A program made the translations under genes and the position numbers. Shown here piece by piece: positions 1-64,000 of a stretch of DNA of 64,000 nt (position 1 is its first letter; every line of letters starts with the position of its first letter). The notes beneath the pieces were generated by a model. The model ran no database searches, was not told the DNA's origin, and saw nothing but the letters and a program-made list of their open reading frames with translations. Source of the stretch: Candidatus Saccharimonadales bacterium (GTDB taxonomy: Bacteria > Patescibacteriota > Saccharimonadia > Saccharimonadales > DASZAF01); contig DATIIB010000009.1 in assembly GCA_035480055.1 (NCBI GenBank), forward strand, positions 21,068-85,067. Reading direction: 5' to 3'.

Positions 1-2
1 CG

Positions 3-1028
3 ATCGAGCTTTTAATTCACGACCTTAAGAACGTGACCTTTCTTCAGGGCAAAGCAAGCAAAATTGATCGGGCTACCAAGCGCATCACGCTTGAAGATGG
101 CAGCACCGTCCAGTACGACAAAGCTATTTTTGCCCTGGGCGTGATCACCAGCTATTTTGGCATTCCTGGGATGAAAGAATATTCACACGGCTTAAAAACC
201 ATGGAAGAACTCGATCAGCTGCACAAAGATCTGCACGAAGAGTTTGTGGACGATCGCATGCCGGATAAAAACTATGTCATTGTTGGTGCCGGCCCCACGG
301 GTGTGGAGCTAGCTGCGTCACTACGCAGCTATTTGCGACAGATTGCCAAATGGCATCACGCTCGCAGCAACAAAATTACGCTTGAACTTATCGAGGCCGC
401 ACCGCGGATTCTGCCTCGTTCGCATCAAAAAGGTTCCGAGCTGGCAGCCAAACGGCTTCACAAATTGGGAATCAAAATGATGCCTGGCAAAAAAGTTGAA
501 GCCGAAACCGCAGACAGCCTGATGGTCAGTGGCCGCTCGATTCCCACCCGGACGGTAATTTGGACCGCTGGCGTGACGAACAATCCTTTTTACGAGAGTA
601 ACAAAACCCAGTTTTCGTTAAACGAACGTGGACGAGTCACAGTGAACAGGTTTATGCAAGTTGATGATTCTTTGTTTGTGATTGGCGATAATGCCGACAC
701 CCCGCATGCCGGCTTGGCGCTCACCGCGGTCCGCGATGCTCGCTATGTGGTACAGCAAATTGTGCGCACCACCAAAGGCAAGTCTCTGCAAGCCTATCAT
801 CAAAAGACGCCAATCACCGTTATTCCGATCGGCCATAAATGGGCGCTGGTTGAATACGGCCCACTCGTATTTGGCGGCTGGCCTGGTGGTTTGTTGCGCT
901 GGCTGGCCGATTTGGTGGCCTATAAAGATATCATGCCACTCGGTCAGGCATTTAGCCTGTGGCGAAACGACAAAGCATACGAAGACGATGGATGTGAGAT
1001 CTGTGCGCAGGCGCAGTTTAAGCACTAA
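3..1028 (+). CDS. ndh: Type II NADH dehydrogenase (NDH-2) / FAD-dependent pyridine nucleotide-disulfide oxidoreductase, 5' end cut by window edge
   Basis: The frame stays open back to position 3 (IELLIHDLKNVTFLQGK), so the listed GTG at 33 is probably internal. Second dinucleotide-binding motif VIVGAGPTGVELA and distal motif LFVIGDNA are typical of NDH-2. Confidence 0.8.
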   Translation: MELLIHDLKNVTFLQGKASKIDRATKRITLEDGSTVQYDKAIFALGVITSYFGIPGMKEYSHGLKTMEELDQLHKDLHEEFVDDRMPDKNYVIVGAGPTGVELAASLRSYLRQIAKWHHARSNKITLELIEAAPRILPRSHQKGSELAAKRLHKLGIKMMPGKKVEAETADSLMVSGRSIPTRTVIWTAGVTNNPFYESNKTQFSLNERGRVTVNRFMQVDDSLFVIGDNADTPHAGLALTAVRDARYVVQQIVRTTKGKSLQAYHQKTPITVIPIGHKWALVEYGPLVFGGWPGGLLRWLADLVAYKDIMPLGQAFSLWRNDKAYEDDGCEICAQAQFKH

Positions 1029-31148: not shown

Positions 31149-32414
31149 ATGGACACGCACAAAAAGATCCACACCACGCTCCGTGATTTACTTGACGCCG
31201 AAGAACCACTCTTTAGCCAGAGTTTGAGGCAGCTCGAGGAAGCCAGCGGTCACAAGGGCACGGACGTCAAGCTGACGGCCGAAATTATTGAGAAAGCTCA
31301 CCAGATTATGGCCACGCTTGGGCTCGACCCGGCTGACACCAATGGACCGGAATTATTCAGTGCGCTCAATAATAAACTGGGCGAGCAAGATGCGCATTTG
31401 GCAAAGACAATTGGTGGCACAGATGCCAGTGATGTCGCGCAGATGCTGCCACTGATCGCGGCTGCAGTGGCCAAAGCCGACATACCACGCGACTGTTGGG
31501 TGCTCAAAAAAGCGGTTGCGAAAGAATTTTTGCGCCACATGCCACCCAAGGGAATTATGAAAATCTTGGGCTACACCGACGTGGCAGAAATGCTCAAAAA
31601 AGAGCAGATCGGCGAGCTATATGGTGCGCTTCGTTTTGCCGAAACGTCGGACTGGCTACGAGAGTTTAACAAAAAATACGAAACACTGACGCCAAGCGAT
31701 TTCGAAACTCGGCAGATCGAAGTCATCCAAATGCCCAAGAATCGCTGGGGCGATATTGCGGCGCATTTTATTGAAAAAAAGCGCCATAACATTACGCACC
31801 TGAAGGAACTTGGCGTTATCTTAATGTTGCCAATGAAGGAAGCCTTTGACTACGGCATTACCATTAAGGTGATGGCCTTGCTGCTGCACTATCATAACGA
31901 GATTCGCCTGTATAGTTCGTACTTCAAACTGCAACAAGTCAAGCCACATTTTGGCAAGATTTTTGTCGACACTCTCAACGCCGATCCCGACCTTGGTCCA
32001 ATTATGGCCGGTCAGCATATCCATTGGCGAGTGATCCAACGGTACTTTGGCAAACTGAAAGATGAATACCATCCTGAAACCTTTGAGCCCCACGTACAGC
32101 CAGAAGATTTACACTGGCGCAAAGCCGAAGAGACCATGTATCAGATTGACCCAGAACTGGCCATGTGGCGCGATCTGGATTACGTGGCGCTGCAGTTTGA
32201 AGATGGCCCAGTGACCTTCAACATGATGGACGTGAGCATGAGCTACTCTAATAAAACGCATTATCCGGAACGCAATATTTATCATTTTCGCGAAAGCTTG
32301 TGGAATGAAATCTTTATCCGCTACATGGGTCACAAAACGTTGGAGCAGCAAATTCTGGAGCAACTTGATAACGACATGATTAAGCCGGAAGATCTCACGG
32401 CTGAGGACGACTAA
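31149..32414 (+). CDS. Hypothetical protein (421 aa, His-rich C-terminal half), native-looking codon usage
   Basis: Long ORF with no recognisable family. Segments HNITHLKE, LLHYHNEIRLY and HIHWRVIQRYFGK. Followed 3 nt later by the LOG-like gene. Confidence 0.65.
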   Translation: MDTHKKIHTTLRDLLDAEEPLFSQSLRQLEEASGHKGTDVKLTAEIIEKAHQIMATLGLDPADTNGPELFSALNNKLGEQDAHLAKTIGGTDASDVAQMLPLIAAAVAKADIPRDCWVLKKAVAKEFLRHMPPKGIMKILGYTDVAEMLKKEQIGELYGALRFAETSDWLREFNKKYETLTPSDFETRQIEVIQMPKNRWGDIAAHFIEKKRHNITHLKELGVILMLPMKEAFDYGITIKVMALLLHYHNEIRLYSSYFKLQQVKPHFGKIFVDTLNADPDLGPIMAGQHIHWRVIQRYFGKLKDEYHPETFEPHVQPEDLHWRKAEETMYQIDPELAMWRDLDYVALQFEDGPVTFNMMDVSMSYSNKTHYPERNIYHFRESLWNEIFIRYMGHKTLEQQILEQLDNDMIKPEDLTAEDD

Positions 32415-33082: not shown

Positions 33083-34216
33083 ATGGTTTGGCATCGACAC
33101 TTGGGATATGAGGCACTCGCGGCTGGCCACGAACAGATTCCGTCGGAGTTTAACCCTACAAACGTGCGCAGTGATTCCGATACGAACGCCGACGAGGATC
33201 CGACTGCAGCTCAGGATGAACTTGCGGCATCTATTGCGGAAAAAGGAATATCTCCCGAATGTATTCTTGAAGACCAAACCCCTGATGCTCGGGTGGCGCC
33301 GATAGTCGGCCAAGCGGCGGTTGATGCAGTAGTCGAGCCAACAGTCGGCCGCTTTATCGGGACGCGCGAACAGCCAGATGGTAGATATGCCGATTACACT
33401 CTGAAAAACAGTACTATAGTGTCTGTGCCGACATCGACAGGATTTTCTATAGATAGGGAAAGCGACAATAGGGCAAACGAAATATTTAATTCAGCTCCCA
33501 CAGATGTGGCAAAGGAAACAGCTCAGGAAGACGAATTAGAACCAGTCGACACAGAGCCTATCGACGAGCAAGTGATCGAGCAACTCAGATCGCATGACCC
33601 TGAAGATCCGTACATTACAGATGCGATTCGATACATGGAAGTGGCCGGCGAAGCAGGCTATAAGGTTGTCGCGGCATACGGCATTGAAGTGGGTGACGGT
33701 GCTCTTGCTATGCAATGCTTTGAGAAAGTTGCCGACCCGGTAGAAAAATGGCGGCTCCATGCTTATGCGCATGAGCGTAAAAGTGATGCGCTTGGCAGTG
33801 ACTATGCGGTTGCGCTTGGCGAAGCCCGAGCAGAGGCAGCGCAGACAGGTGACACCGAGGCGACGCTAAGCATTGAGACTGCTCGCTTGTGCGAAGAGCT
33901 GGCGGTAGCCGAGCCAACCCAAACCGATCGCGATACACAAGCCTACCTGCTAAGTGGCGTAGTTACAGCCTTGAGCGCGGTTGATTCGGAAGCATTGAGT
34001 CGCACCAGCCGTGAAGATGTGGCTGCGATTATTGGCACTCTGGTACAGAATGGACGAGCAGCAGAGGCGACAGAAAAGGTAGTTCCTGCCTTGCCGGGTG
34101 CGATGCAAGCGGAAGCTCAGGAGCTCGTGACATTACACCGTGCCTTGAATGGGCAAATGAGCAAAAAGGAGCTAAGAGATATACAAAGAGTACTGCTCCA
34201 AGCCATTTCCTGCTGA
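33083..34216 (+). CDS. Hypothetical acidic protein (ORFan, 377 aa)
   Basis: Asp/Glu/Ala-rich ORF with many ATA, AGA and AGG codons in its first ~150 codons. GAGGAA SD upstream. No family recognised. Confidence 0.55.
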   Translation: MVWHRHLGYEALAAGHEQIPSEFNPTNVRSDSDTNADEDPTAAQDELAASIAEKGISPECILEDQTPDARVAPIVGQAAVDAVVEPTVGRFIGTREQPDGRYADYTLKNSTIVSVPTSTGFSIDRESDNRANEIFNSAPTDVAKETAQEDELEPVDTEPIDEQVIEQLRSHDPEDPYITDAIRYMEVAGEAGYKVVAAYGIEVGDGALAMQCFEKVADPVEKWRLHAYAHERKSDALGSDYAVALGEARAEAAQTGDTEATLSIETARLCEELAVAEPTQTDRDTQAYLLSGVVTALSAVDSEALSRTSREDVAAIIGTLVQNGRAAEATEKVVPALPGAMQAEAQELVTLHRALNGQMSKKELRDIQRVLLQAISC

Positions 34217-36621: not shown

Positions 36622-36682
36622 GCGCGCTTTACAAGCTTATCCTTTCGCGGTACTATGCGCGTAACCAATGGAGGGTTACGAA

Positions 36683-37717
36683 ATGGTAAAACGATCATGG
36701 GTGCCAGACTACAAACTACCTGTCTGGGCAATGCGTAGTAAATATTACCTGATGGAATTTATTGCAGCCCTGGGTGGTTTGCTGGTGACAACAGTGATCC
36801 TCGACAGAGTGCTTTTTGGCATTACGCGGTATCTCGCTGATTCCCAAGGGACACGCAGCGTCGGCGATCAGCTCAACCTCTGGGCCGTGGCCTTTCTGAT
36901 CGTTGCTTTACCTGTCACGCTTTTATTTTACAAGCGTTCTCGTTTTGAAGAGCTGGAGCGTCCAGCGGTTGCAACCACCAAGCTGCGTCGTTTCTTTTTG
37001 TACATCTTTATGTTGGCCATGTTGGCTGGATCTGTACTGTTTGCGGTCTATGCACTGTACACGCTACTTTCTGCACTACTCGGGGCGACCGAAATAGGCG
37101 ATGCACTGTTGCAGCAGACGTTGCCCGCTGCACTGGCGGCAGGTTTGAACGGATTTGTTTTTCGCAGTCTGATGCGAGTTGATAGTCCTACGCACATAAA
37201 AGAGTTCGCCGTACTGTACGGAGGTATAGGGGTTGTGCTGTTGGTTGCGTTGCTGGTGATGACCAGTGTGCAGGCGCGCAGTAGTCTGGTTGATGAAAAA
37301 ACAAGTAACGACCTCCAAACGGTAAGCGCTCAGGTGGAAGAATACTACAGCCAAAAAGGCCAGTTACCCAATAATCTTTCTGACCTCACTCTCGACAAGT
37401 CTTTGCTGCGACGAGGCGAAAAGCACGGATACACCTTCTCAAAGCGTAGTGCGCAGAGTTATCGTTTGTGCGCGACGTTTAAAAGTAAGCGGACTGACGC
37501 AATAAACGCTGACGTGACACCTGCTCCTTTGAAGCGGAGTACGCTGATACCAACAGAAACCAATTTTACGGTGCATGATGCAGGCAACTACTGCTTTACC
37601 ATAAACGCGGGAGTCGGTGCAGTGCCGTATACAGATGGCTATCCTCCAACCACTCCTGATGCATCTTCAGACTCAACAAATTCGACCCTGCAAGACCAGA
37701 GCACGGGCGCCTATTAA
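36683..37717 (+). CDS. Membrane protein: DUF5671-like multi-TM N-terminal domain fused to a pilin-like C-terminal domain
   Basis: Four or more TM helices, then DLQTVSAQVEEYYSQKGQLPNNLSDL ... YRLCATF ... NYCFTI. This resembles the globular domain of CPR type IV pilin-like proteins, with two Cys. GGAGGG SD lies 6 nt before ATG 36683. Confidence 0.55.
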   Translation: MVKRSWVPDYKLPVWAMRSKYYLMEFIAALGGLLVTTVILDRVLFGITRYLADSQGTRSVGDQLNLWAVAFLIVALPVTLLFYKRSRFEELERPAVATTKLRRFFLYIFMLAMLAGSVLFAVYALYTLLSALLGATEIGDALLQQTLPAALAAGLNGFVFRSLMRVDSPTHIKEFAVLYGGIGVVLLVALLVMTSVQARSSLVDEKTSNDLQTVSAQVEEYYSQKGQLPNNLSDLTLDKSLLRRGEKHGYTFSKRSAQSYRLCATFKSKRTDAINADVTPAPLKRSTLIPTETNFTVHDAGNYCFTINAGVGAVPYTDGYPPTTPDASSDSTNSTLQDQSTGAY

Positions 37718-42321: not shown

Positions 42322-42564
42322 ATGGATGCATTTGAAATACTCGTGCTTATACTAGGGATCATGCTCGCGTTGTTCCTGCTCTTAGGAATTGTGGCCGGAG
42401 TCTATATCGTGAAGGTGATGCGCCACGTTGAGGCGATCACTCAAAAGGCTGAAAACGCGGCCAGCTATGCCGAATCGGCTGGCAAAACAATTGCAAGCGC
42501 AATGAGCCCGACACTGGTGGCAGCTGCGATTTTCAAGCAAGTTAAAAAGACATTTGGTAAATAA
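42322..42564 (+). CDS. DUF948-like small membrane protein
   Basis: Single N-terminal TM helix followed by a short helical tail. The architecture matches DUF948, with weak sequence support. Confidence 0.5.
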   Translation: MDAFEILVLILGIMLALFLLLGIVAGVYIVKVMRHVEAITQKAENAASYAESAGKTIASAMSPTLVAAAIFKQVKKTFGK

Positions 42565-42574
42565 GGAGACAGTT

Positions 42575-43021
42575 ATGGCACAGCACAAAGAAGGTAAAGG
42601 TAGCGGTAAATTTGTTCTTGGGGCAGCACTCGGCGCGGCTGTAGGCGCCATCACCGCGCTACTCACCGCCCCAAAAAGTGGTAAAGAAACTCGCGAAGAT
42701 CTCAAAAACAAAGCTACCGAGATGAGCCATGAGGCCATGCGCCAACTCCGTAAACTGGAAGGTGAATTGAACAAGCGTATCTCTGATGCCAAGCGCTTGG
42801 TTGGTAAGCTTGAAGGCAATGCACGGACCGAAGTGGAATCACTGATTACCCGGGCAGAACGCATGCGTGACCGCGCGATGAAGATGGCCGAAGACATCAA
42901 GAACGACACCAAAAAGCAGCTCGACGAGAAATTTATGAGTGACGCCAAAGCCGTGTTAGATGACCTGCAGGACATCAAGCAACACGTCAGCGACCGCGCT
43001 AAAAAAGAAGCTAAGAAGTAG
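42575..43021 (+). CDS. YtxH domain-containing protein
   Basis: GKFVLGAALGAAVGAITALLTAPKSGKETREDLKNKA is the YtxH signature, followed by a Lys/Glu-rich coiled coil. AAGGAG SD precedes ATG 42575. Confidence 0.8.
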   Translation: MAQHKEGKGSGKFVLGAALGAAVGAITALLTAPKSGKETREDLKNKATEMSHEAMRQLRKLEGELNKRISDAKRLVGKLEGNARTEVESLITRAERMRDRAMKMAEDIKNDTKKQLDEKFMSDAKAVLDDLQDIKQHVSDRAKKEAKK

Positions 43022-43032
43022 CCCTTACTCCT

Positions 43033-43314
43033 GTGGCAAGGCAATCGTTTACCCAAAAAACAAGCGATACCATTGCCAAAGGGGCAATGGCTGGTGTGCT
43101 CGACGACCTTTTTCAGAATATGTATTCGCGCCGTTGGCAAATCTACAAAATGAACTTTGTCCGTGGTATGGTCTTTGGCTTTGGTGGTGTGCTGGGCGGG
43201 ACTATTTTGGTGGTGATTCTTATTTGGACCTTGTCTCTTTTTGACCATCTGCCGGTCATCGGTCACTTTGTGGAAACCGTGCGGCACTCGCTGGAAACAG
43301 CTCAGAAAAAGTAG
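43033..43314 (+). CDS. DUF5665 domain-containing membrane protein
   Basis: NFVRGMVFGFGGVLGGTILVVILIWTL ... LPVIGHFV matches the DUF5665 pattern as I remember it. GTG start as listed. Confidence 0.65.
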   Translation: MARQSFTQKTSDTIAKGAMAGVLDDLFQNMYSRRWQIYKMNFVRGMVFGFGGVLGGTILVVILIWTLSLFDHLPVIGHFVETVRHSLETAQKK

Positions 43315-43385
43315 CGGTGGTGTGCAAAAAACCACAGCCCTCGCTTCGCCCTGCGTGCTATAATTGAACAAACGGGGGTAAAAAG

Positions 43386-46300
43386 GTGAGTAAAGCGGCA
43401 ACCGATTTGCAGGCTAGTGATTACGTGCATTTGCACAACCACACGCACTATAGCGTGCTGGATGGTTTGCAAAAGGTTCCCGAAACCCTTAGCCGTGCGC
43501 AAGATATGGGCATGGAGGCTATGGCAATTACCGACCATGGCACACTCTCTGGCGCCATCGAATTCTACAAGGTCGCTCAAGACAAAGGGATGAAGCCGAT
43601 TATCGGCATGGAAACCTATGTCGCCCCGCGCACCATTGCCGACAAAGATCCAGCTAAAGACAAAGCCCGCTATCACTTAATTCTCTTGGCCATGAATCAG
43701 AAAGGGCTCGAGAATCTCTTCCGGCTCAGCTCGATTGCCTGGCTGGAAGGCTACTATTACAAACAGCGTATCGACCATCTGCTGCTGGAACGCTACAACG
43801 AAGGGCTGATCGTGCTCTCTGGCTGTATTGGTGGAGAGGTCGGTGAACATTTGCGACAAGATCAAGACGACAAGGCATACGAATTTGCCAAATGGTACAA
43901 GTCGATTTTTGGCGATCGCTATTACATTGAAGTGCAGGATCATGGCCACCCAGATCATCCGCATAAGTGGGATGAGCAGATTAAGGTTAATCAAAAACTG
44001 CTGAAGCTCGCCAAAGATTTAGACATTCCACCGGTGGTGACCTGCGACGCTCACTATGCTTCGCCTGAAGACAAGGATGCGCACGAAATTCTGCTGTGCG
44101 TACAGACTGGGGCAAATCTTAGCGAAGAAAGCCGTTTTAGCCTCAAAGATTTTGACCTGTTTGTCGAAGATCCACAAGCCGTGATCACCCGTTGGGGTAC
44201 CGATCACCCCGAGGTTATTGCCAATACTCGGGCGATTGCGGAACGCTGCGAGATCAAGTTTGACCTGGGCGGTATTCACATTCCAAAATTCGACGTGCCC
44301 GAAGGTCATACCGAAAAGACCTTTCTCGATGAGCTGGTGTATCAAGGATTAGCTGAACGCTACGAAGGCTTGCCGCATGATGAAGCGCATGCGCTCTCGA
44401 TCGAGGAAGCCAAGGCCAAACTCAAAGATGACGTGTTGCAACGCACAGAATATGAGCTGGGTGTGATCGACCGCATGGGCTTTAACGGCTACATGCTGAT
44501 CGTGCAAGATTTTATTAACTGGGGCAAAGACCAGGGGATCATATTTGGACCAGGACGCGGTTCAGCGGCGGGTTCGATTATTGCCTTTGCGCTGCGTATT
44601 ACCGACATTGATCCGCTTAAGTACGATTTGCTGTTTGAGCGTTTTCTCAACCCAGACCGTATTTCGATGCCAGATATTGATGTCGACATTCAAGACACCA
44701 GACGCAATGAGGTCATCGAATACTGCGCCAAAAAGTATGGCAGCTCGCGCGTGAGCAACATTGTGACTTTTGGCACCATGGCTGCTCGGGCCGCGGTACG
44801 CGATGTGGCGCGGACGCTCGAGGTGCCCTATGCCGAAGCTGACCGCTTGGCCAAAATGGTGCCGCAGCCGGTTCAGGGCCGTCATATCCCACTGGCTGTG
44901 TCGATTCAGGAAGATCCTGATCTCAAAAAGGAGTATCAAAATAATCCCACCAGCAAACGGGTCATTGACCTGGCTTCGCGGCTGGAAGGTACCATCCGTA
45001 GCCACGGGGTTCACGCCTGTGGAGTGGTGATTGCGCCCGATGATGTGGTGAAGTTTCTGCCACTCGAAATGGCTCAAAAAGGCGTCGTTGCCACGCAGTT
45101 CCCCATGGGTCAGGTGGAGGAGCTTGGGCTGCTGAAGATGGACTTTTTGGGGCTCTCTAACCTCACGATTATCAAAAACGCGATGCGTATTATCAAAAGG
45201 GTCAATGGCGTTGATATTGACCTGGAAAAAATGCCGCTTGATGATCCAAAAGCCTACGAACTGCTCGCCAGCGGCGATACGACCGGCGTCTTTCAGTTGG
45301 AATCGGCGGGGATGAAGCGCTACTTGAAGGAGCTCAAGCCAACTGTGTTTGATGACATTATCGCCATGGTCGCCCTCTATCGTCCAGGACCGATGCAGTT
45401 TATTGATGACTTTATTGCGCGTAAACACGGCCGCAAGCAAATTACCTACATGCACCCGCTGATGAAAAACGCGTTGGAAAACACCTATGGCATTTTGGTC
45501 TACCAAGAACAGGTCATGCAGATTTCCAAAGAGTTGAGTGGATTTACCGGCGGCCAAGCTGACACCTTGCGTAAGGCGATCGGTAAAAAGAAGATCGATG
45601 TGATGCAAAAGATGAAGGTTGACTTTATTGAAGGCGCGATCAAAAATGGCGCCGAACGGGAGTCGATGGAAAAGTTCTGGAAGCAGCTCGAAGATTTTGC
45701 CGCGTACTGTTTTAACAAATCGCACGCTGCCTGTTACGGACTGATTGCGTACTGGACAGCCTATCTTAAAGCCTATTACCCTGCTGCCTTTATGGCCGCA
45801 CTGATGACCAGTGACCAAGATGACACCGACCGCTTGGCGATCGAGATCACCGAATGCAAACACATGGGCCTTGAAGTCCTTGCGCCAGACGTGAATGAAT
45901 CGTTTGGCGAATTTGCGGTTGTGCCTGGAACCTCGCAGATCCGGTTTGGCTTGAATGCGGTGAAGAACGTTGGCGCCAATGCGGTGGAAACCATTTTGGC
46001 GGCTCGCCAAGCAGGTGGTGAATTTGCGAGCATTGAGGATTATGCCAAGCGTGTTAATTGTCGTATTGTGAACCGCAAGAACTTGGAAAGTCTGATTAAA
46101 GCGGGAGCGTTTGACCGTTACGGTAATCGTTCGGACTTGCTGTTTAATCTTGATGGTATCCTCGCGTTTGCTAGCAAACTGCAAAAGGAAGCCGAAAGCG
46201 GTCAAGCGAACCTGTTTGGCGATATTGGTGAAGCTCTGCCCGCTGCTCACCTGCAACTAGAGAGCGCGCCTACTCAGGTCACCGAGCAAGAAGTGTTGCA

Positions 46301-52651: not shown

Positions 52652-54061
52652 ATGAGCGATATTTTAATTTATTACACAGAGTCAACTGAACAAGATCCAG
52701 AAGCGCCTACCGTCCATGGGCCTATGGATGGAGAAGCGGAGCTAGAGCCAGAGGCAGTGACGCAAGCAGCAATTATGAAAGATCATCGGGAGAACAACCT
52801 ACCTCCGCAACTAGTCCTTGATTCCATTGAAGATCGTGGAGCGCCAATTGAGGTGGCTGCGGCGCAAGCTCCGACGGTTGAGACTCAAATAGTTACTGAC
52901 CGCACTCAGCTGGGAGCGGCCGTGCTTCGTGTCTCTGATGAACCCGCCAAACGTGCCGAAGACGAACCACATAATGTTACAGACCCTGCTGAAGAAGCTA
53001 CTCCTCCTCTCGCAGCAAGCGGCGGCGAGGGTGGTGACGGTAGATTCCCCCGAGACGGCGCCCCTCTAGGCGGCGAAGGCGATGACGAAGATCCAGAAGG
53101 TTCAGAAGAACCCGAAGAGCTATCCGAGGAAGAATTCTGGACCAGAGAATCAGAGGAGCTACGGCAAAAGTCGGCCTCCGAGATTCTTGCTACGGTAGAA
53201 TCCAGAGCGTTTCAACCCGCTCCTCCGGTTATTGAGAAGCGCAATGATGGCGATGTTGAAGTGACGATAGTGCTTTGCGAGCAACCGCCAAAGGATAATG
53301 CGAACCTGCCTAAAGAAGTTGGGGGTTGTGACCTTGTGCTGGTTGAACAATATGGTGGACTTAACAACCAACGGGAACTGCAAGAACAATTTTCACGAAC
53401 TGAAGGTACAGGGGTGCGTTTTATTGGCACGGATGAGACTCATCCTCAGTCCTATCATCACGAAGCAACAGAATCTGCGAAACAGACTTTGCATTACGCT
53501 GTCAATCTTCTTTACCCTGTCCCAGAGGCGGTATCAGCAATGCAGTCTTACATCGCAACTAGGGATATAGCTGTTGAGGCGCAAGACACCTTACAGGCGC
53601 AACAGATCAAAGGGGTCATACGGAGCCAAGAAGAACCCGCATCGATCGGCGTCATCATGCGTCCGCATCATCATCAGGCTGTGGCTGAAGTTGGGGAAGA
53701 GGCTTCAGCTGAGAGAACAGCCGAGATTGCCGATAAAGCTGCGCAAGCTATGACTCCTGATGACCTCGCCGTTGAAGCCTTCCGAGCTGGGAATACTGAG
53801 CAGATGAGAATTACGGCCGAACAGGCAATCATTAGCAAATACATTTACCGCTTTTTGCCCGGCGAAGGATTAACCCACCAAGGCGATGTGCGCCGCGCCA
53901 ATAGAGTAGCAATGGCGCTTACTGACGACCAACGCGAACGGATCCTTGCGCGCCTTTCATCGGCACTCGCTGATCAGGGAGAATACTTTCATAAGAAAGC
54001 ATCCAAAGTACGACAGGCACTATACGAAGTAATCAACCAGCCTCAAACCTCCGAAGAATAG
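52652..54061 (+). CDS. Hypothetical acidic protein (ORFan, 469 aa)
   Basis: The N-terminal ~170 aa are Glu/Asp/Pro/Gly-rich and look disordered; the C-terminal half looks helical. Frequent ATA/AGA codons. No family recognised. Confidence 0.55.
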   Translation: MSDILIYYTESTEQDPEAPTVHGPMDGEAELEPEAVTQAAIMKDHRENNLPPQLVLDSIEDRGAPIEVAAAQAPTVETQIVTDRTQLGAAVLRVSDEPAKRAEDEPHNVTDPAEEATPPLAASGGEGGDGRFPRDGAPLGGEGDDEDPEGSEEPEELSEEEFWTRESEELRQKSASEILATVESRAFQPAPPVIEKRNDGDVEVTIVLCEQPPKDNANLPKEVGGCDLVLVEQYGGLNNQRELQEQFSRTEGTGVRFIGTDETHPQSYHHEATESAKQTLHYAVNLLYPVPEAVSAMQSYIATRDIAVEAQDTLQAQQIKGVIRSQEEPASIGVIMRPHHHQAVAEVGEEASAERTAEIADKAAQAMTPDDLAVEAFRAGNTEQMRITAEQAIISKYIYRFLPGEGLTHQGDVRRANRVAMALTDDQRERILARLSSALADQGEYFHKKASKVRQALYEVINQPQTSEE

Positions 54062-58287: not shown

Positions 58288-58331
58288 CCCTTGCCTTCCC
58301 CGATCGCACATTGTATAATGCACACAGTTAC

Positions 58332-58356
58332 CCCGGCCGCCAAAGGTCGGGTTTTT
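58332..58356 (+). terminator. Intrinsic-terminator-like hairpin plus T5 between the secreted ORFan and nusA
   Basis: CCCGGCC / gccaaa / GGTCGGG (7 bp, one G-U) followed by TTTTT. It lies downstream of a TATAAT box at 58314-58319. Confidence 0.55.
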
Positions 58357-58381
58357 ACTTAAAAAATAGGAGACGTATTTA

Positions 58382-59545
58382 ATGGATGATCTTAACACTA
58401 AACAATTAGTCCAAGCCATTACCCACATTGCTGAAGAAAAAAACCTGCCCGAAGATGAAGTCCACGACATTATCCAACAGGCTATCGCTGCTGCCTGGCG
58501 CCGCGATTATGGTACCAAAGAACAAGAAGTACGCGTGCAGCTCAACCCGAGCACTGGCGTTGCTACCGTTTTGGTGAGCAAAACTGTAGTGGATGACGAC
58601 GATGTTGCTGACGAAGACACCGAAATCGGCGTGACCGAAGCTCAAAAGATTAAGCCCGGCGTGCAAGTCGAAGAAACCGTAGAGATCACTCACACACCTA
58701 CGCGCTTTGGTCGTGTTGCCGCACAGACCGCCAAGCAAGTTATCTTGCAAAAGCTCCGCGAAGCCGAACGCGAAGTGGTCATGGGCGAATACGAGGACAA
58801 AATTGGCACCGTGATCATCGGTACTGTGCAGCGAGTTGAACCACGCTTTGTACGAATCGAACTTGGCAAAGCAACCGGCATCCTACCGCAAAGCGAACAG
58901 ATTCCTGGCGAGTATTATGCCGTTGGCTCGCGCATTAAAGTCTTTTTGAAAGATGTCGAACGCGGCAATCGCGGCCCACAACTTATCCTGAGCCGCGGCA
59001 ACTCTGAGTTTATTGAATACCTCTTTCGTCAAGAAGTTCCCGAAATGGAAAACGGCGCAGTCGAGATCAAGGCGATTGCTCGTCAAGCCGGTCAGCGCAC
59101 CAAGATTGCGGTGCACTCAACCGTTCCAGGTGTTGACCCAGTTGGCACCTTTGTTGGTGGCCACGGTACTCGCGTCCAAGCGGTCATGAACGAGATTGGT
59201 GACCAAGAAAAGATCGACATTATTACTTTTAACGACGACAGCAAAACCTTTATCGCCAACGCACTGAGCCCGGCCGAAATTGCTGGTATTGAGCTTGATG
59301 AAGCAACCAAAAAAGCGGTGGTTAAAGTTCCCGAGGACCAACTGTCGATAGCCATTGGCCGTGGTGGTCAGAACGTGCGTCTTGCGAGTCAATTGACTGG
59401 CTACGAACTGGACATCGAAGCAGCAACTGGCGAAAAGAAAACCGCCACCCCTCCAAGCGCAGCCGCTCCGAAGAAGCGCAAGAATATTGAAGATTCTTTG
59501 CTGACCGCTATCGAAGAAACCAGCGAGACAATAGAGGAAAAATAA
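58382..59545 (+). CDS. nusA: Transcription termination/antitermination factor NusA
   Basis: N-terminal domain, S1 and two KH domains (IAIGRGGQNVRLASQLTG). AGGAG SD upstream. Confidence 0.95.
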   Translation: MDDLNTKQLVQAITHIAEEKNLPEDEVHDIIQQAIAAAWRRDYGTKEQEVRVQLNPSTGVATVLVSKTVVDDDDVADEDTEIGVTEAQKIKPGVQVEETVEITHTPTRFGRVAAQTAKQVILQKLREAEREVVMGEYEDKIGTVIIGTVQRVEPRFVRIELGKATGILPQSEQIPGEYYAVGSRIKVFLKDVERGNRGPQLILSRGNSEFIEYLFRQEVPEMENGAVEIKAIARQAGQRTKIAVHSTVPGVDPVGTFVGGHGTRVQAVMNEIGDQEKIDIITFNDDSKTFIANALSPAEIAGIELDEATKKAVVKVPEDQLSIAIGRGGQNVRLASQLTGYELDIEAATGEKKTATPPSAAAPKKRKNIEDSLLTAIEETSETIEEK

Positions 59546-59552
59546 AACGCAG

Positions 59553-59579
59553 TTAGCACTCTTGACTTGCGAGTGCTAA
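59553..59579 (+). promoter_or_regulatory. CIRCE element (HrcA operator), perfect consensus, overlapping the clpC promoter
   Basis: TTAGCACTC-ttgacttgc-GAGTGCTAA matches the published consensus TTAGCACTC-N9-GAGTGCTAA at 18/18 arm positions. The spacer contains TTGACT (59562-59567), and TATCAT lies 18 nt downstream (59586-59591). Confidence 0.85.
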
Positions 59580-59633
59580 TGACGGTATCATAAAAGTACC
59601 CATTACATTTGCTAAAAGGGGGTACAAAAGCGT

Positions 59634-62132
59634 ATGTATCATAGCGAATTCGCTGAATTTCTTCACCACCTGACCGACAATGCCCGGCTCAGTTTGAAGA
59701 ATGCTGAATCGATTGCCCGTAACCTCGGTTCTGCCTATATTGGCACCGAGCACCTGCTGCTCGGCGTGCTTTCGCAGGATAGCTCAGTGGCTGCCAAGAT
59801 GCTGGCCGTTTCGGGAGTGACTATTGATCGTGCGCAACTCGCGCTGAAACTCACGCCAAAATCATTGGCGATTAGTGGCGGCGGTGGCACGAGCGTGCGT
59901 GCCCTCAGCGAAACCGCCAAACTGACTCTGCGATTGAGCTGGGATGTCGCGCAGGAATTCAACCAGGACTTTTGCGGCACTGAGCACATTTTGTACAGCA
60001 TCCTCAGCCAAAAGAATGCCCGGGCAACCGTACTGCTGCGCGATATGAAGGTGGACATCGACGAGTTAATGGGCGATCTGGAGCAGTTTTTGAATCGTCA
60101 GCAAGATGATTACGAAGCGACTGAAGTGACTGCTGAGCGCCGGAGTAAAAAACGTTCATTGATTACGCACTTTGGCATCGACTTAACTGCTAAGGCTCGC
60201 AAGGGCGAACTCGACCCCGTTATTGGCCGTGACCCTCAGATTAAGCGCATGATCACCATCCTTGGACGCCGTACCAAAAACAATCCCGTGCTCCTGGGAG
60301 AGCCAGGCGTGGGCAAGACGGCTATTGTTGAAGGTTTGGCGCAGCGAATCGTGGCCGAAGACGTTCCTGAGCATTTGATTGATAAGCAGATTGTCACTCT
60401 TGACCTTGCGGGGATGATCGCTGGCACTAAGTACCGCGGTGAGTTCGAAGAACGGCTGCGCCAGATCATTGACGAGTTGGTGCACGATCGCCAGACGATC
60501 GTCTTTATTGATGAAATTCATTTGCTGGTTGGCGCAGGGGCCGCCGAAGGTGCAATCGACGCGGCGAACATGCTTAAGCCAGCTCTGGCTCGCGGCCAAC
60601 TGCAGTTGGTTGGCGCAACCACCTTGGACGAATACAAGAAACACATCGAAAAAGACGCTGCCTTAGAGCGACGTTTACAGACCATTATTGTGCCCGAACC
60701 AAGCCTAGACGAGACAATTGCGATCTTGCACGGCGTGAAGCGCCACTACGAAGCGCACCACCATGTGCAGATTGATGACGAAGTGGTCGCCGAAGCAGCG
60801 CACATGGCCAAGCGGTATATCGGTGATCGCTTTATGCCCGACAAAGCCATCGACTTGCTGGATGAGGCTGCTGCTCAAGCGCGCATTGATCGCGGCAAAA
60901 ATTCTTCGGAGATTCGCCGTTTGACCAAAGAACTGAAGCATATTACGGCTCGCATGGAATCGGCAGTGGACGATGAAAACTACGAACGAGCAGCACGGTA
61001 CAAGACTCGGATGAGCCAAATTACCGAAGAGCTGAGTGAGTTGCGCCACAAAAAAGGTGTGCGCCAGATTCAGCTTACCTCTGATGATATTGCTCGGACG
61101 GTCGCGCAGATGACTGGGGTGCCTGTGCGCCGCGTGCTGCGTTCGGAAGCACGACATCTGCTCCGACTCGAAGAGAAGCTAAGTAAGCAATTGATTGGCC
61201 AAAGCGAGGCGGTGACGGCGGTAGCCAAGGCGATTCGTCGCAATCGTTCAGGTATTACAGACAAGAATCGCCCGATTGGCTCCTTTATCTTTCTCGGTCC
61301 CACTGGCGTAGGCAAAACTGAGCTGGCTCGTATTCTGGCCCGCGAACTGTACGCCAACGAATCATCCTTGATCAAGATCGACATGAGTGAGTTTGGCGAA
61401 CGGCATACCGCTTCTCGCTTGGTCGGCGCACCTGCTGGGTACGTAGGCTACGAAGAAGGCGGTCAATTAACCGACAAAGTTCGCCGGCAGCCCTATTCAC
61501 TCATTCTCTTTGACGAGATCGAAAAAGCGCATCCTGAAGTCTTTAACTTACTGTTGCAGATTCTGGAAGACGGCCAGCTCACGGACGCTAAAGGTCGCAA
61601 GGTTGACTTCCGCAATACGTTAATTATTCTTACCAGCAACATTGGTGCCGAGAAACTGCAAAAAGAAGCCGCGCTTGGTTTCCGTGCAGAAAGCACCAGC
61701 GAGCACGACCGTTTGGCGCAAGTTCATGACCAAAATAGCGAGCAAGCTCTGGAAGAACTCAAGAAGTTAATGCGCCCTGAGCTGTTGAACCGTTTTGACA
61801 AGCGGCTGGTCTTTCGGGCGTTGACTCGTCAGGATGCTCGGAAAATCCTTGATTTGCAGCTCAACAATCTCGCCGAACGACTGGCGACCAAAGGGATTAA
61901 TATCAAAGTGATGCCGCTTGCCAAGCAGGCACTACTCGAAAAAGGCTACGATAGCACCAATGGTGTTCGGCCGCTGCGCCGGGTTATTGAAGAGGATTTG
62001 GAAGATGCGCTGGCAGAAGGAGTTTTGGCCAACCAGTATGCCGAGGGCAGCGTGATTCGCGTGACGCATCGCAATGGACAGTTCCAGTTTGATCTGGCTG
62101 AAAGTGGCGTGCTACAAAAGGAACGCAAGTAG
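59634..62132 (+). CDS. clpC: ATP-dependent Clp protease ATP-binding subunit ClpC
   Basis: Two Clp_N repeats, two AAA+ modules ([18 protein letters not shown]) and a UVR-like linker ([18 protein letters not shown]). Confidence 0.95.
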
Positions 62133-62168
62133 TCCCTTGACAAGGTGACAGTGTGCTACGATAAAAGC

Positions 62169-63140
62169 ATGAAGCGCTTTTCTAGATTAGGTGGACTGTT
62201 AGTTTCTTTGCTCTTTCTGGCAGCCGCTGGCGGCGCGGTATTTTTCCGTCAGGATATTCTGGATTGGTGGGCCCTGCGAAGTTATACGCCGCCAGCCGAG
62301 GTGCAGCAACTAGCCGATCAAGGTACGGTCACTAAGTATGCGCGGCGCATCTTTTATGCTTCGCATCCAGCGGTCGAAGATAGCGCGCCATTTAACCAAC
62401 ATTGCAACCAGCATGCTGAGAAAACAATTGTGCTGGGCTGCTACGATGGCCGCTACATATATGTCTATAATGTGACCGATCAGCGCCTCAACGGCGTCAA
62501 GCAAGTGACGGCTATGCACGAAATGCTCCATGCTATCTACCAACGACTTTCGCCCAGTGAGCGGACCAAGGTTGATAGCGAGGTTGAAGCTCAGTTTAAA
62601 TCCATGAACGATGCCCACATTAATGAACTTGTGGCAGAGTATCAAAAAAGCGAACCCGGCGAAGTTGATAACGAACTGCATTCCATTTTGGGCACCGAGG
62701 TTGGCGGGCTGAGTCCTGACCTCGAGACGTATTACACTAAATACTTTACCAATCGTCAGGCGGTGGTCAGTTTTGCCAACCAATATGAATCCGCGTTTAC
62801 TGACAGCCAAAAGAAGATCGCTACAATCGATGCCCAACTTGCGTCGTTGCAGTCTCAGATTGATCAGAATCAAAAGACACTGGCCGCGCAGCAAACCGTG
62901 TTGGATGCGGAATCGGCCCGTATGAGTTCGTTGCGTTCGAGCGGCAGCGTGGATACCTATAATGCTGCAGTGGCGCCGTATAATGCCAAAGTCCAGGCGT
63001 ATAACGGGTTGATTGCTGACACCAAGCAGCTGGTGGCGCAGTACAACAGTTTGGTTGAAACGCGGAATGCGCTGGCCACGGCGCATAACAATCTGGCGCA
63101 GAGTCTTAATAGTAGTTTGCAAGCGCTTCCAGCGCAGTAA
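62169..63140 (+). CDS. Membrane-anchored protein with HExxH motif and Gln/Asn/Ala-rich coiled-coil tail
   Basis: TM helix LGGLLVSLLFLAAAGGAVFF and VTAMHEMLHAIYQRL (HExxH). The C-terminal ~120 aa are coiled-coil-like with recurring YN dipeptides. I prefer the ATG at 62169. Confidence 0.6.
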   Translation: MKRFSRLGGLLVSLLFLAAAGGAVFFRQDILDWWALRSYTPPAEVQQLADQGTVTKYARRIFYASHPAVEDSAPFNQHCNQHAEKTIVLGCYDGRYIYVYNVTDQRLNGVKQVTAMHEMLHAIYQRLSPSERTKVDSEVEAQFKSMNDAHINELVAEYQKSEPGEVDNELHSILGTEVGGLSPDLETYYTKYFTNRQAVVSFANQYESAFTDSQKKIATIDAQLASLQSQIDQNQKTLAAQQTVLDAESARMSSLRSSGSVDTYNAAVAPYNAKVQAYNGLIADTKQLVAQYNSLVETRNALATAHNNLAQSLNSSLQALPAQ

Positions 63141-63153
63141 CAAAGGTGTAAAG

Positions 63154-64000
63154 ATGGCAAAAGCAACCTCTCAATTTGTTTGCCAACAATGTGGCGCTAT
63201 CCGCTCCAAATGGGTAGGGCGCTGCGATAATTGTGGTGAATGGAACAGTTTTGTCGAGCAAGTTACTGACTCTTCGATGGCTATTGGGGGAAATCTCAAA
63301 AGTTCGGGCAAGGCACTGCTACCCACGCCAGTTTCCAAAGTCAGCGACAATGCGACCCGCAACCGCACCAGTACCAAGATCAAAGATGTTGATGATGTGC
63401 TTGGCGGCGGCATCGTCCCGGCCAGCGTGATCCTGTTGGCCGGCCAGCCGGGCATTGGGAAGTCGACCATTCTGACTCAGATTGCGCACTCAGTGGCGAT
63501 GACCGACCCTGTTCTGTATGTGAGCGGTGAAGAGTCCGCTGAGCAGATTAAAGCTCGTGCGTCACGCCTGGGCGCGTTGAGCGATCAATTATTGCTGGCC
63601 AGCAGTGTCTCGGCTGACGATATTGCCAGCACGATCAGTACTGGCAAGTACAAACTGGTCATTGTTGACTCGATCCAAACCATTGCCACAGCCGGTATCA
63701 GCTCTGGCCCTGGGAGCGTCAGCCAAGTGACGAACTGCCTGAACCTGTTGTCGCAAGTTGCCAAGGCGCATAATACTTCGCTTATTATTGTTGGGCATGT
63801 GACCAAAGAAGGCAGCATTGCCGGACCGAAGTTGCTGGAGCATTTGGTTGATGTGGTGCTCAACCTTGAAGGGGACCGGTATGGTGGCTTTAAAGTACTG
63901 CGCGCGGTCAAAAATCGCTACGGCTCTACTAACGAAGCAGGTATTTTTGAAATGGGCGAAACCGGCCTAGAGGTCGTAGCCAATCCATCAGCTGCGCTTT
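63154..64000 (+). CDS. radA: DNA repair protein RadA/Sms, 3' end cut by window edge
   Basis: Not in the ORF track because no stop falls in the window. MAKATSQFVCQQCGAIRSKWVGRCDNCGEWNSF zinc ribbon, Walker A GQPGIGKST, KNRYG motif near the edge. Confidence 0.93.
   Translation, partial: MAKATSQFVCQQCGAIRSKWVGRCDNCGEWNSFVEQVTDSSMAIGGNLKSSGKALLPTPVSKVSDNATRNRTSTKIKDVDDVLGGGIVPASVILLAGQPGIGKSTILTQIAHSVAMTDPVLYVSGEESAEQIKARASRLGALSDQLLLASSVSADDIASTISTGKYKLVIVDSIQTIATAGISSGPGSVSQVTNCLNLLSQVAKAHNTSLIIVGHVTKEGSIAGPKLLEHLVDVVLNLEGDRYGGFKVLRAVKNRYGSTNEAGIFEMGETGLEVVANPSAAL

What the first reader, a model, noticed from the sequence alone, without database searches (positions are those of the whole stretch)
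59553..59579. Perfect CIRCE/HrcA operator on the clpC promoter; clpC-X-radA synteny without a CtsR module
The sequence TTAGCACTC-ttgacttgc-GAGTGCTAA matches the CIRCE consensus (TTAGCACTC-N9-GAGTGCTAA) at all 18 arm positions.

It starts 8 nt after the nusA stop. Its 9-nt spacer carries a TTGACT -35 box, with TATCAT 18 nt downstream, so a bound repressor would occlude the clpC promoter.

From established knowledge, CIRCE/HrcA classically controls groESL and hrcA-grpE-dnaK. In Bacillus, clpC sits in ctsR-mcsA-mcsB-clpC-radA-disA and is controlled by CtsR.

Here the clpC...radA linkage is kept, with one extra gene in between. No ctsR, mcsA or mcsB precede clpC, and CIRCE sits in that position. 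This suggests the Clp ATPase was moved into the HrcA regulon in this lineage.
Basis: partly seen in the sequence, partly recalled or inferred. Interest (0 to 1): 0.65.

Follow-up and report, generated by a model that had tools for sequence, protein, structure and literature searches.

The report
HrcA operator on Saccharibacteria clpC promoter
A perfect copy of the heat-shock repressor binding site (CIRCE) sits on the promoter of the clpC protease-ATPase gene in this Saccharibacteria genome and in every relative examined, so this reduced-genome lineage most likely controls its Clp protease with the chaperone repressor HrcA rather than with the CtsR system that Bacillus uses.

Summary
TTAGCACTC-ttgacttgc-GAGTGCTAA lies at 59553-59579 and is the only CIRCE-like site in the 64-kb window. 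It starts 7 nt after the nusA stop and ends 54 nt before the clpC start codon. The spacer carries a TTGACT -35, with TATCAT 18 nt downstream.

The window comes from a Saccharimonadales (Saccharibacteria/TM7) MAG. All nine relatives chosen by ClpC similarity alone (48-85% identity) carry the same module, although the flanking DNA is unalignable and nusA is sometimes not the upstream neighbour. None of 75 ClpC loci from other phyla has it.

ctsR, mcsA/mcsB and CtsR boxes are absent. In relatives, clpP is also covered: it either has its own CIRCE or sits inside the clpC operon.

A short HrcA (about 230-245 aa), which NCBI labels only "transcriptional regulator", is widespread in the order. In one relative a single 1.13-Mb contig carries hrcA, dnaK and clpC, each behind CIRCE.

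I could not find hrcA in the window's own MAG, because only 79 kb of that contig was reachable.

Verdict: a real HrcA/CIRCE-repressed clpC-X-radA operon. It is an apparently unreported, lineage-wide extension of a known regulon, parallel to clpB and lon in Mollicutes. Interest is moderate.

The parts
58382..59545 (+). nusA (387 aa), the upstream neighbour; its stop is 7 nt before the operator
   Evidence: Pfam NusA_N, S1 and KH domains; gene table. nusA is adjacent to clpC in L002, L006, L109, L205, L217 and L219, but not in L001, L003, L004 or L214.
59553..59579 (.). CIRCE operator: left arm TTAGCACTC (59553-59561), 9-nt spacer, right arm GAGTGCTAA (59571-59579)
   Evidence: Zero mismatches and the only site in the window. 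Arms are conserved in front of clpC in all Saccharibacteria relatives while the flanks are not.
59562..59567 (+). -35 hexamer TTGACT, inside the CIRCE spacer
   Evidence: Promoter scan, 10 of 12. A TTGnnn hexamer occupies the same place in the spacer in all 11 relatives tabulated.
59586..59591 (+). -10 hexamer TATCAT, 18 nt after the -35 and 6 nt after the right arm
   Evidence: A TAnnnT hexamer lies at 17-18 nt spacing in all relatives.
59616..59622 (+). Shine-Dalgarno-like AAGGGGG, 11 nt before the clpC ATG
   Evidence: Read directly from the sequence.
59634..62132 (+). clpC (832 aa), a class I Clp/Hsp100 ATPase
   Evidence: Two Clp_N repeats, two AAA+ modules and a UVR motif. Full-length single-stretch match to S. 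aureus and B. subtilis ClpC at E about 1e-230, whereas ClpB matches in two pieces. Walker A motifs at residues 222 and 555, and an LGF tripeptide at 681-683. NCBI name: Clp protease ATP-binding subunit [Candidatus Saccharimonadales bacterium].
62151..63140 (+). Gene X (329 aa): N-terminal membrane helix, invariant HE[ML]LHA motif, C-terminal coiled coil. It starts 18 nt after clpC and is probably co-transcribed.
   Evidence: No Pfam or NCBIfam family apart from weak coiled-coil hits. Orthologues follow clpC in L001, L002, L004, L109, L205, L214, L217 and L219, and precede clpP in L003. Alignment.
63154..64000 (+). radA (449 aa in full; cut by the window end). It starts 13 nt after X and is probably in the same operon.
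   Evidence: Translation shows the zinc ribbon and RecA-like P-loop. Full gene with Zn_ribbon, AAA_25 and Lon_C/ChlI hits in L081.

Best explanation
The element is an HrcA operator (CIRCE) fused to the clpC promoter of a Saccharimonadales bacterium. The -35 box lies in the 9-nt spacer between the two arms, and the -10 box starts 6 nt after the right arm. A bound HrcA dimer would therefore cover the core promoter and block RNA polymerase.

When unfolded proteins accumulate under heat or proteotoxic stress, they titrate GroEL/ES. HrcA then loses activity, and the clpC-X-radA(-TRAM) operon is transcribed together with hrcA-grpE, dnaK and dnaJ.

This lineage lacks CtsR/McsA/McsB. It has placed its Clp protease genes (clpC here; clpP as well in relatives) in the class I HrcA regulon.

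Shown: the sequence, its uniqueness, the promoter geometry, conservation across the order, absence of the CtsR module, presence of a short HrcA in the order, and its co-occurrence with CIRCE-clpC on one contig in a relative.

Inferred: HrcA binding, repression, GroEL dependence, the transcription start, co-transcription of X and radA, and the presence of hrcA in this particular genome.
For: 1. Perfect 18/18 CIRCE, the only site in 64 kb.
2. It overlaps the best promoter-like site of the region.
3. Unbiased conservation. All 9 Saccharibacteria ClpC loci fetched by protein similarity alone (L001-L004, L006, L205, L214, L217, L219; ClpC 48-85% identical) carry CIRCE with 0-2 mismatches. Each has a TTGnnn in the spacer and a TAnnnT 17-18 nt downstream, while the flanks are unalignable. 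Three more turned up in the CIRCE-selected metagenome scan (L109, L150, L154). L002 changes both arms symmetrically (TTGGCACTC...GAGTGCCAA), which preserves the dyad.
4. The module stays with clpC when nusA is not the neighbour (L001, L003, L004, L214).
5. None of 75 ClpC loci from other phyla has CIRCE upstream. About 24 Firmicutes loci instead have ctsR about 2 kb upstream, and 9 of 15 tested have CtsR boxes.
6. clpP is also covered. It has its own CIRCE in L003 and L147, and lies inside the clpC-X-clpP-radA operon in L004.
7. HrcA is present in the order. Short HrcA proteins confirmed by Pfam have more than 8000 relatives, some labelled Candidatus Saccharibacteria or Saccharimonadales by NCBI.
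8. One 1,127,446-bp contig carries CIRCE-clpC (perfect), CIRCE-hrcA-grpE (perfect) and two CIRCE copies before dnaK. A second genome is supported by matching contig length, GC and tetranucleotide correlation r = 0.94.
9. There is no Rfam match, no U-tract and an unremarkable RNA fold.
Against: hrcA was not found in the window's own MAG. It is absent from contig positions 14.4-93.1 kb. None of the 240 listed HrcA hits could be tied to GCA_964479845.1 or to its annotated twin assembly. The rest of the genome could not be searched.

There is no expression, transcription-start or binding data. No terminator separates nusA from clpC, so read-through transcription may add to clpC expression.

The lineage's HrcA lacks about 95 positions of the canonical C-terminal domain. 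Whether it behaves like the B. subtilis protein, including its GroEL dependence, is unknown.
Confidence: 0.85

Rival explanations
1. The inverted repeat acts at the RNA level, as a nusA terminator, an attenuator or an mRNA-stability hairpin, rather than as a protein operator.
For: It lies 7 nt after the nusA stop and can form a 9-bp hairpin (centroid structure).
Against: - No U-tract follows the repeat.
- Fold z-score is -1.5, and 13 of 200 shuffles fold at least as well.
- There is no Rfam match.
- The arm sequence, not merely the pairing, is invariant and identical to CIRCE across relatives.
- The element stays with clpC when nusA is elsewhere (L001, L003, L004, L214).
- From its own promoter the repeat would not be transcribed, because the -10 lies downstream of it.
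Confidence: 0.03
2. The site is a relic. This genome has lost hrcA, the operator is no longer bound, and clpC is expressed constitutively.
For: hrcA was not found in the 79 kb of the contig that could be inspected.
Against: An unbound 18-base palindrome would not stay perfect. It is perfect here and has 0-2 mismatches in relatives down to 48% ClpC identity. Short HrcA is widespread in the order, and it is on the same contig as CIRCE-clpC in a relative with 67% ClpC identity.
Confidence: 0.04
3. clpC is transcribed mainly by read-through from nusA, and CIRCE-bound HrcA acts as a roadblock rather than by occluding a promoter.
For: There is no terminator-like site between nusA and clpC. The nusA-clpC adjacency recurs in six relatives.
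Against: The -35 and -10 hexamers are conserved at fixed spacing in all relatives, including those where a different gene lies upstream. The same -35-in-spacer design precedes hrcA, dnaK and dnaJ in relatives. This rival would add to the main explanation rather than replace it.
Confidence: 0.08

Closest known systems
[quoted passage not shown]
   Same: The operator sequence TTAGCACTC-N9-GAGTGCTAA is identical (consensus as quoted in PMC3842655). Relatives of this organism have CIRCE before hrcA-grpE, dnaK and dnaJ.
   Different: The target here is clpC-X-radA, not a chaperone operon. The operator encloses the -35 box; from my own knowledge, in B. subtilis it lies between the transcription start and the start codon. 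The lineage's HrcA is about 100 residues shorter.
HrcA regulon of Mollicutes (Mycoplasma pneumoniae, M. gallisepticum, Spiroplasma melliferum), which includes clpB and lon
   Same: Both are reduced genomes in which HrcA is the stress regulator, and in both CIRCE controls AAA+ chaperone or protease genes besides dnaK and groESL (PMC5138195; PMC7737663).
   Different: The recruited genes there are clpB, lon, pepA and pip. Here they are clpC and, in relatives, clpP, that is, the Clp protease itself, together with radA and a lineage-specific HExxH protein. The phylum is unrelated, so the parallel is convergent.
clpP of Streptococcus salivarius, dually controlled by CtsR and HrcA (Chastanet and Msadek 2003, J Bacteriol 185:683; title seen in the reference list of PMC3842655, paper not held, content from my own knowledge)
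   Same: A Clp protease gene carries a CIRCE operator.
   Different: There CIRCE is added on top of CtsR control. Here no ctsR gene or CtsR box exists.
ctsR-mcsA-mcsB-clpC-radA-disA operon of Bacillus subtilis (class III, CtsR-repressed)
   Same: The clpC-radA linkage is retained. ClpC is a full-length orthologue-like protein.
   Different: ctsR, mcsA, mcsB and disA are absent. An unrelated gene X lies between clpC and radA. The repressor is exchanged for HrcA. About 24 Firmicutes loci in the same search do show ctsR upstream of clpC.

Membership tests
CIRCE / HrcA operator | 9-bp inverted repeat TTAGCACTC-N9-GAGTGCTAA | tested here: met
   18 of 18 arm positions match at 59553-59579; it is the only site in the window.
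CIRCE / HrcA operator | Located in the promoter or 5' region of a stress (proteostasis) gene, on the coding side | tested here: met
   It ends 54 nt upstream of the clpC ATG and overlaps the best sigma-70-like site of the region.
CIRCE / HrcA operator | Conserved at the orthologous position in related genomes while the flanks diverge | tested here: met
   9 of 9 relatives chosen independently of CIRCE, plus 3 CIRCE-selected loci; 0 of 75 loci from other phyla.
CIRCE / HrcA operator | hrcA gene present in the same genome | tested here: inconclusive
   Not present in contig positions 14.4-93.1 kb; the rest of the MAG could not be searched. In a relative with 67% ClpC identity, hrcA and CIRCE-clpC lie on one 1.13-Mb contig.
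CIRCE / HrcA operator | HrcA binds the site, and the downstream gene is derepressed by heat or unfolded proteins | not testable with these tools
   Requires a gel-shift assay or footprinting, and heat-shock RNA-seq.
ClpC (class I Clp/Hsp100 ATPase, ClpP partner) | Clp_N double repeat, two AAA+ modules, short UVR-type middle domain | tested here: met
   Pfam Clp_N x2, AAA, AAA_lid_9, UVR, AAA_2 and ClpB_D2-small. Single-stretch full-length match to solved ClpC structures, while ClpB matches in two stretches.
ClpC (class I Clp/Hsp100 ATPase, ClpP partner) | ClpP-docking tripeptide loop in D2 | tested here: met
   LGF at residues 681-683 in ...[11 protein letters not shown].... That this is the docking loop is judged from its position in D2, not from a structure.
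CtsR (class III) regulon | ctsR gene, usually directly upstream of mcsA-mcsB-clpC | tested here: not met
   A CtsR probe finds about 24 Firmicutes loci but nothing in the window or in Saccharibacteria loci. The gene table upstream of clpC shows nusA, an unknown gene and an M1 peptidase.
CtsR (class III) regulon | CtsR box (tandem A/GGTCAAA heptads) in the clpC promoter | tested here: not met
   The window has 5 weak matches against 5.06 expected, none near clpC. There are 0 of 10 in Saccharibacteria upstream regions against 9 of 15 in Firmicutes controls.

The most novel reading that the evidence does not exclude
In Saccharimonadales a truncated HrcA of about 235 aa, lacking roughly the first 95 positions of the canonical C-terminal domain, is the single master regulator of proteostasis. 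Through a lineage-specific promoter design with the -35 box inside the CIRCE spacer, it jointly controls the chaperones (hrcA-grpE, dnaK, dnaJ), the whole Clp protease (clpC, clpP), the DNA-repair gene radA and a lineage-specific membrane HExxH protein (X). This would be a convergent counterpart, in the candidate phyla radiation, of the streamlined Mollicutes heat-shock network, with a repressor whose dimerisation and GroEL sensing may work differently from the studied full-length proteins.
Probability: 0.45. Interest if true: 0.5.

Novelty: new member of a known kind. Interest (0 to 1): 0.38.

Why it matters
Almost nothing is known about gene regulation in Saccharibacteria or other candidate-phyla bacteria. 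Searches of the held literature found no paper that links HrcA or CIRCE to Saccharibacteria or Patescibacteria.

This result gives a concrete, testable regulon for the group: one repressor, a well-defined operator, and a defined set of targets that includes the Clp protease.

It also explains why HrcA looks absent from their annotations. The short form scores 178 bits against the NCBIfam hrcA cutoff of 197.2 bits and is named only "transcriptional regulator".

It shows a second, independent case after Mollicutes of a reduced genome folding protease control into the chaperone regulon.

It is not a new mechanism. Moving genes into or out of the HrcA regulon is a known kind of evolutionary change.

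Tried and rejected
**Searching for hrcA**
- I looked for hrcA inside the window and in 15 kb beyond its ends. I used a B. subtilis HrcA probe recalled from memory (probe only) and 21 CIRCE-linked HrcA ORFs, and found nothing.
  - P0116 is from ERZ27247346.
  - P0346 is from GCA_034680565.1.
  - P0329 is from GCA_965225085.1 and occurs in the same run, SRR9179562, as the window organism. I rejected it as a different organism on GC (0.547 against 0.510) and tetranucleotide correlation (0.76 against 0.94 for a same-genome control).
  - No hit has an accession near HSX28662.1.
- The CIRCE sites in L032, L044 and L053 precede groEL, groES and htpG, not hrcA.

**Rival readings tested and rejected**
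- RNA element or terminator: no Rfam hit and an unremarkable fold.
- CtsR control: no gene and no boxes.

**Other dead ends**
- clpP is not in the window.
- One Pfam call failed on wrong coordinates.
- The S. salivarius clpP paper is not held.

Full report
**1. Observation**

The sequence at 59553-59579 is TTAGCACTC-TTGACTTGC-GAGTGCTAA. It matches the CIRCE consensus at all 18 arm positions.
- It is the only match in the 64-kb window at up to 3 mismatches, where dinucleotide shuffles give 0.03. It is still the only one at up to 4 mismatches.
- nusA (58382-59545; NusA_N, S1, KH) ends 7 nt before it. clpC (59634-62132) starts 54 nt after it.
- The spacer holds TTGACT (59562-59567), and TATCAT (59586-59591) follows after 18 nt. 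This is the best sigma-70-like site in 58300-63300, at 10 of 12.
- An AAGGGGG ribosome-binding site lies 11 nt before the ATG.
- Downstream, gene X (62151-63140) starts 18 nt after clpC, and radA (from 63154) starts 13 nt after X.

**2. Source organism**

The ClpC protein is encoded on contig CAYZNG010000002.1 (317,011 bp) of MAG GCA_964479845.1. The identical protein is NCBI HSX28662.1, "[Candidatus Saccharimonadales bacterium]". The closest reference genomes found by ClpC similarity are Saccharibacteria MAGs. GC content is 0.51.

**3. What ClpC is**

- The protein has two Clp_N repeats, two AAA+ modules, a UVR-type middle domain and the D2-small domain.
- It aligns full-length in one stretch to S. 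aureus and B. subtilis ClpC (E about 1e-230), whereas ClpB aligns in two pieces.
- It has Walker A motifs at residues 222 and 555, and an LGF tripeptide at 681-683 where the ClpP-docking loop is expected.

It is therefore a ClpP-partner ATPase, not ClpB.

**4. Conservation**

Of 80 ClpC loci fetched from reference genomes by protein similarity alone, the five Saccharibacteria loci (L001-L004, L006; ClpC 48-62% identical) all carry CIRCE with 0-2 mismatches directly upstream of clpC. None of the other 75 loci does.

Four more relatives, chosen by ClpC identity or contig length and not by CIRCE, also have it:

| Locus | ClpC identity to window |
|---|---|
| L217 | 85% |
| L219 | 79% |
| L205 | 68% |
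| L214 | 67% |

- In all of them a TTGnnn hexamer sits in the spacer, and a TAnnnT hexamer follows at 17-18 nt.
- The DNA on either side is unalignable.
- L002 changes both arms symmetrically (TTGGCACTC...GAGTGCCAA), which is what selection on a dyad-symmetric protein site predicts.
- The module stays with clpC when nusA is not the neighbour (L001, L003, L004, L214). It therefore belongs to clpC and is not the end of nusA.

**5. The rest of the regulon in the lineage**

- In L003 a second CIRCE (1 mismatch) lies directly before clpP-radA.
- In L004 clpP lies inside clpC-X-clpP-radA, behind the single operator.
- A metagenome locus, L147, also has CIRCE before clpP.
- A metagenome scan for the operator with the embedded TTG returned sites before hrcA (21), dnaK (8), groES (6), dnaJ (3), htpG, sHSP genes, clpC-like genes and clpP. 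The taxa of most of these loci are unknown.

**6. The repressor**

- Many of the CIRCE-linked hrcA genes encode short proteins of 217-245 aa. Pfam confirms the winged-helix HrcA DNA-binding domain plus only about the last 120 of 215 positions of the HrcA C-terminal model.
- One of them scores 178 bits against the NCBIfam hrcA cutoff of 197.2. This fits NCBI's label for its relatives, [quoted passage not shown]. More than 8000 relatives exist.
- On the single contig ERZ14708565:NODE_1 (1,127,446 bp):
  - clpC-X-radA lies at about 451 kb behind a perfect CIRCE;
  - hrcA-grpE lies at about 722 kb behind a perfect CIRCE;
  - dnaK lies behind two CIRCE copies.
- A second genome gives the same picture:
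  - HrcA P0099 and ClpC P0180 both report a 982,009-bp longest contig;
  - their loci have identical GC and a tetranucleotide correlation of 0.94;
  - the clpC locus is fully syntenic with the window.
- The design with the -35 box inside the spacer is also used at hrcA, dnaK and dnaJ in these relatives.

**7. No CtsR system**

- A CtsR probe finds ctsR about 2 kb upstream of clpC in about 24 Firmicutes loci from the same search. It finds nothing in the window or in any Saccharibacteria locus. The probe sequence was recalled from memory and was validated by those hits.
- CtsR boxes occur in 9 of 15 Firmicutes controls and in 0 of 10 Saccharibacteria upstream regions.
- The window's weak matches equal the chance expectation, and none is near clpC.
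- The genes upstream of clpC are nusA, an unknown gene and an M1 peptidase, with no mcsA or mcsB.

**8. Rival readings**

- *RNA element or terminator:* disfavoured. There is no U-tract, the fold z-score is -1.5, and there is no Rfam hit. The arm sequence itself, not just the pairing, is conserved.
- *Relic operator in a genome that lost hrcA:* cannot be excluded directly, because I could not search the whole MAG. A perfect palindrome with no binding protein is unlikely, given how well the site is conserved.
- *Read-through from nusA:* may contribute, since no terminator intervenes. The conserved promoter hexamers argue for an autonomous promoter.

**9. What could not be done**

- hrcA is not in contig positions 14.4-93.1 kb.
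- Candidates followed up from the homologue lists belong to other assemblies.
- The most tempting one, P0329, occurs in the same sequencing run as the window organism but is a different organism by composition.

**10. Comparison with known systems**

- The operator and the presumed mechanism are those of the class I HrcA/CIRCE regulon (consensus as in PMC3842655).
- HrcA control of AAA+ proteostasis genes beyond groE and dnaK is established in Mollicutes, for clpB, lon, pepA and pip (PMC5138195, PMC7737663).
- Chastanet and Msadek (2003) reported CIRCE on clpP, combined with CtsR, in S. salivarius. I saw only the title; the content is from my own knowledge.
- What is new here is the lineage (candidate phyla radiation), the targets (clpC and clpP together with radA and gene X), the complete replacement of CtsR, the promoter-in-spacer design, and the short HrcA.
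- No paper in the held library links HrcA or CIRCE with Saccharibacteria or Patescibacteria.

**11. Verdict**

It is a new member of a known kind of regulon. It is of moderate interest, mainly as the first concrete regulon model for Saccharibacteria and as a convergent parallel to Mollicutes.

Noticed in passing
L159:5755 region (- strand), L207:10001-10717, L215:8001-8696, L202:10001-10708: HrcA in Saccharimonadales is short, at about 230-245 aa against about 340 aa. It has the winged-helix domain plus only the last ~120 of 215 positions of Pfam PF01628. It scores below the NCBIfam hrcA cutoff (178 against 197.2 bits), and NCBI labels it only 'transcriptional regulator'. Only the N-terminal domain aligns to the T. 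maritima structure 1STZ.
   Followed up: partly
window 62151-63140: Gene X, between clpC and radA, is conserved across the order. It has an N-terminal membrane helix, invariant HE[ML]LHA and E[LM]HS motifs (HExxH metallopeptidase-like) and a C-terminal coiled coil. It matches no Pfam or NCBIfam family. It always travels with clpC or clpP.
   Followed up: partly
L003:21450-22076; L004:8013-8567; L147:2516-3150: clpP is also under CIRCE in relatives. It has its own operator in L003 and L147, and lies inside the clpC-X-clpP-radA operon in L004. The window contains no clpP.
   Followed up: yes
L003:9947-9990, L004:4500-4555, L006:9954-10003, L150 (reverse strand), L154:7362-7418: In several relatives the clpC ATG lies only 17-20 nt after the right arm, that is, 5-8 nt after the -10 box. 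Those mRNAs would be leaderless or nearly so. The window's gene has a leader of about 35 nt with a Shine-Dalgarno sequence.
   Followed up: no
L215:11279-11351; L202:18132-18204; L210:11364-11438; L211:10661-10732: dnaK in relatives is preceded by two tandem CIRCE copies about 46 nt apart, the first enclosing a TTGAC -35 box. clpC has only one copy.
   Followed up: no
L203:13366-20787 (contig region just upstream of, and overlapping, window 1-1028): This region holds a haem-copper oxidase operon (COX2, COX1, COX3, COX4-like, UbiA-type haem O synthase), a Pyr_redox_2 (NDH-2-like) gene, a cupredoxin and a polyprenyl synthase. That is respiratory equipment in a Saccharibacterium, a group usually described as fermentative.
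   Followed up: no
L093, L098, L158 (FmdB-type zinc-ribbon genes); L089 (rpoH-like sigma factor): In metagenome contigs of unknown taxa, the same CIRCE variant precedes small FmdB-family zinc-ribbon genes (three loci) and an RpoH-like sigma factor gene.
   Followed up: no
L002:3925-3951: The operator in L002 has a symmetric double change (TTGGCACTC...GAGTGCCAA) that preserves the dyad, and its -35 box is shifted 2 nt within the spacer. L211 shows the same arm variant before hrcA.
   Followed up: no
L211-L213 (GCA_965225085.1; runs SRR9179560 and SRR9179562): A second, different Saccharimonadales organism (GC 0.547) co-occurs with the window's organism in run SRR9179562. It has hrcA, grpE, dnaK and dnaJ, each behind CIRCE-like sites.
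   Followed up: partly
window 1-64000: ARAGORN finds no tRNA gene in the whole 64-kb window. Several long ORFs have no Pfam family (for example 31149-32414, 33083-34216, 42382-43401 and 52652-54061). A DUF5671 protein is encoded at 36668-37717.
   Followed up: no
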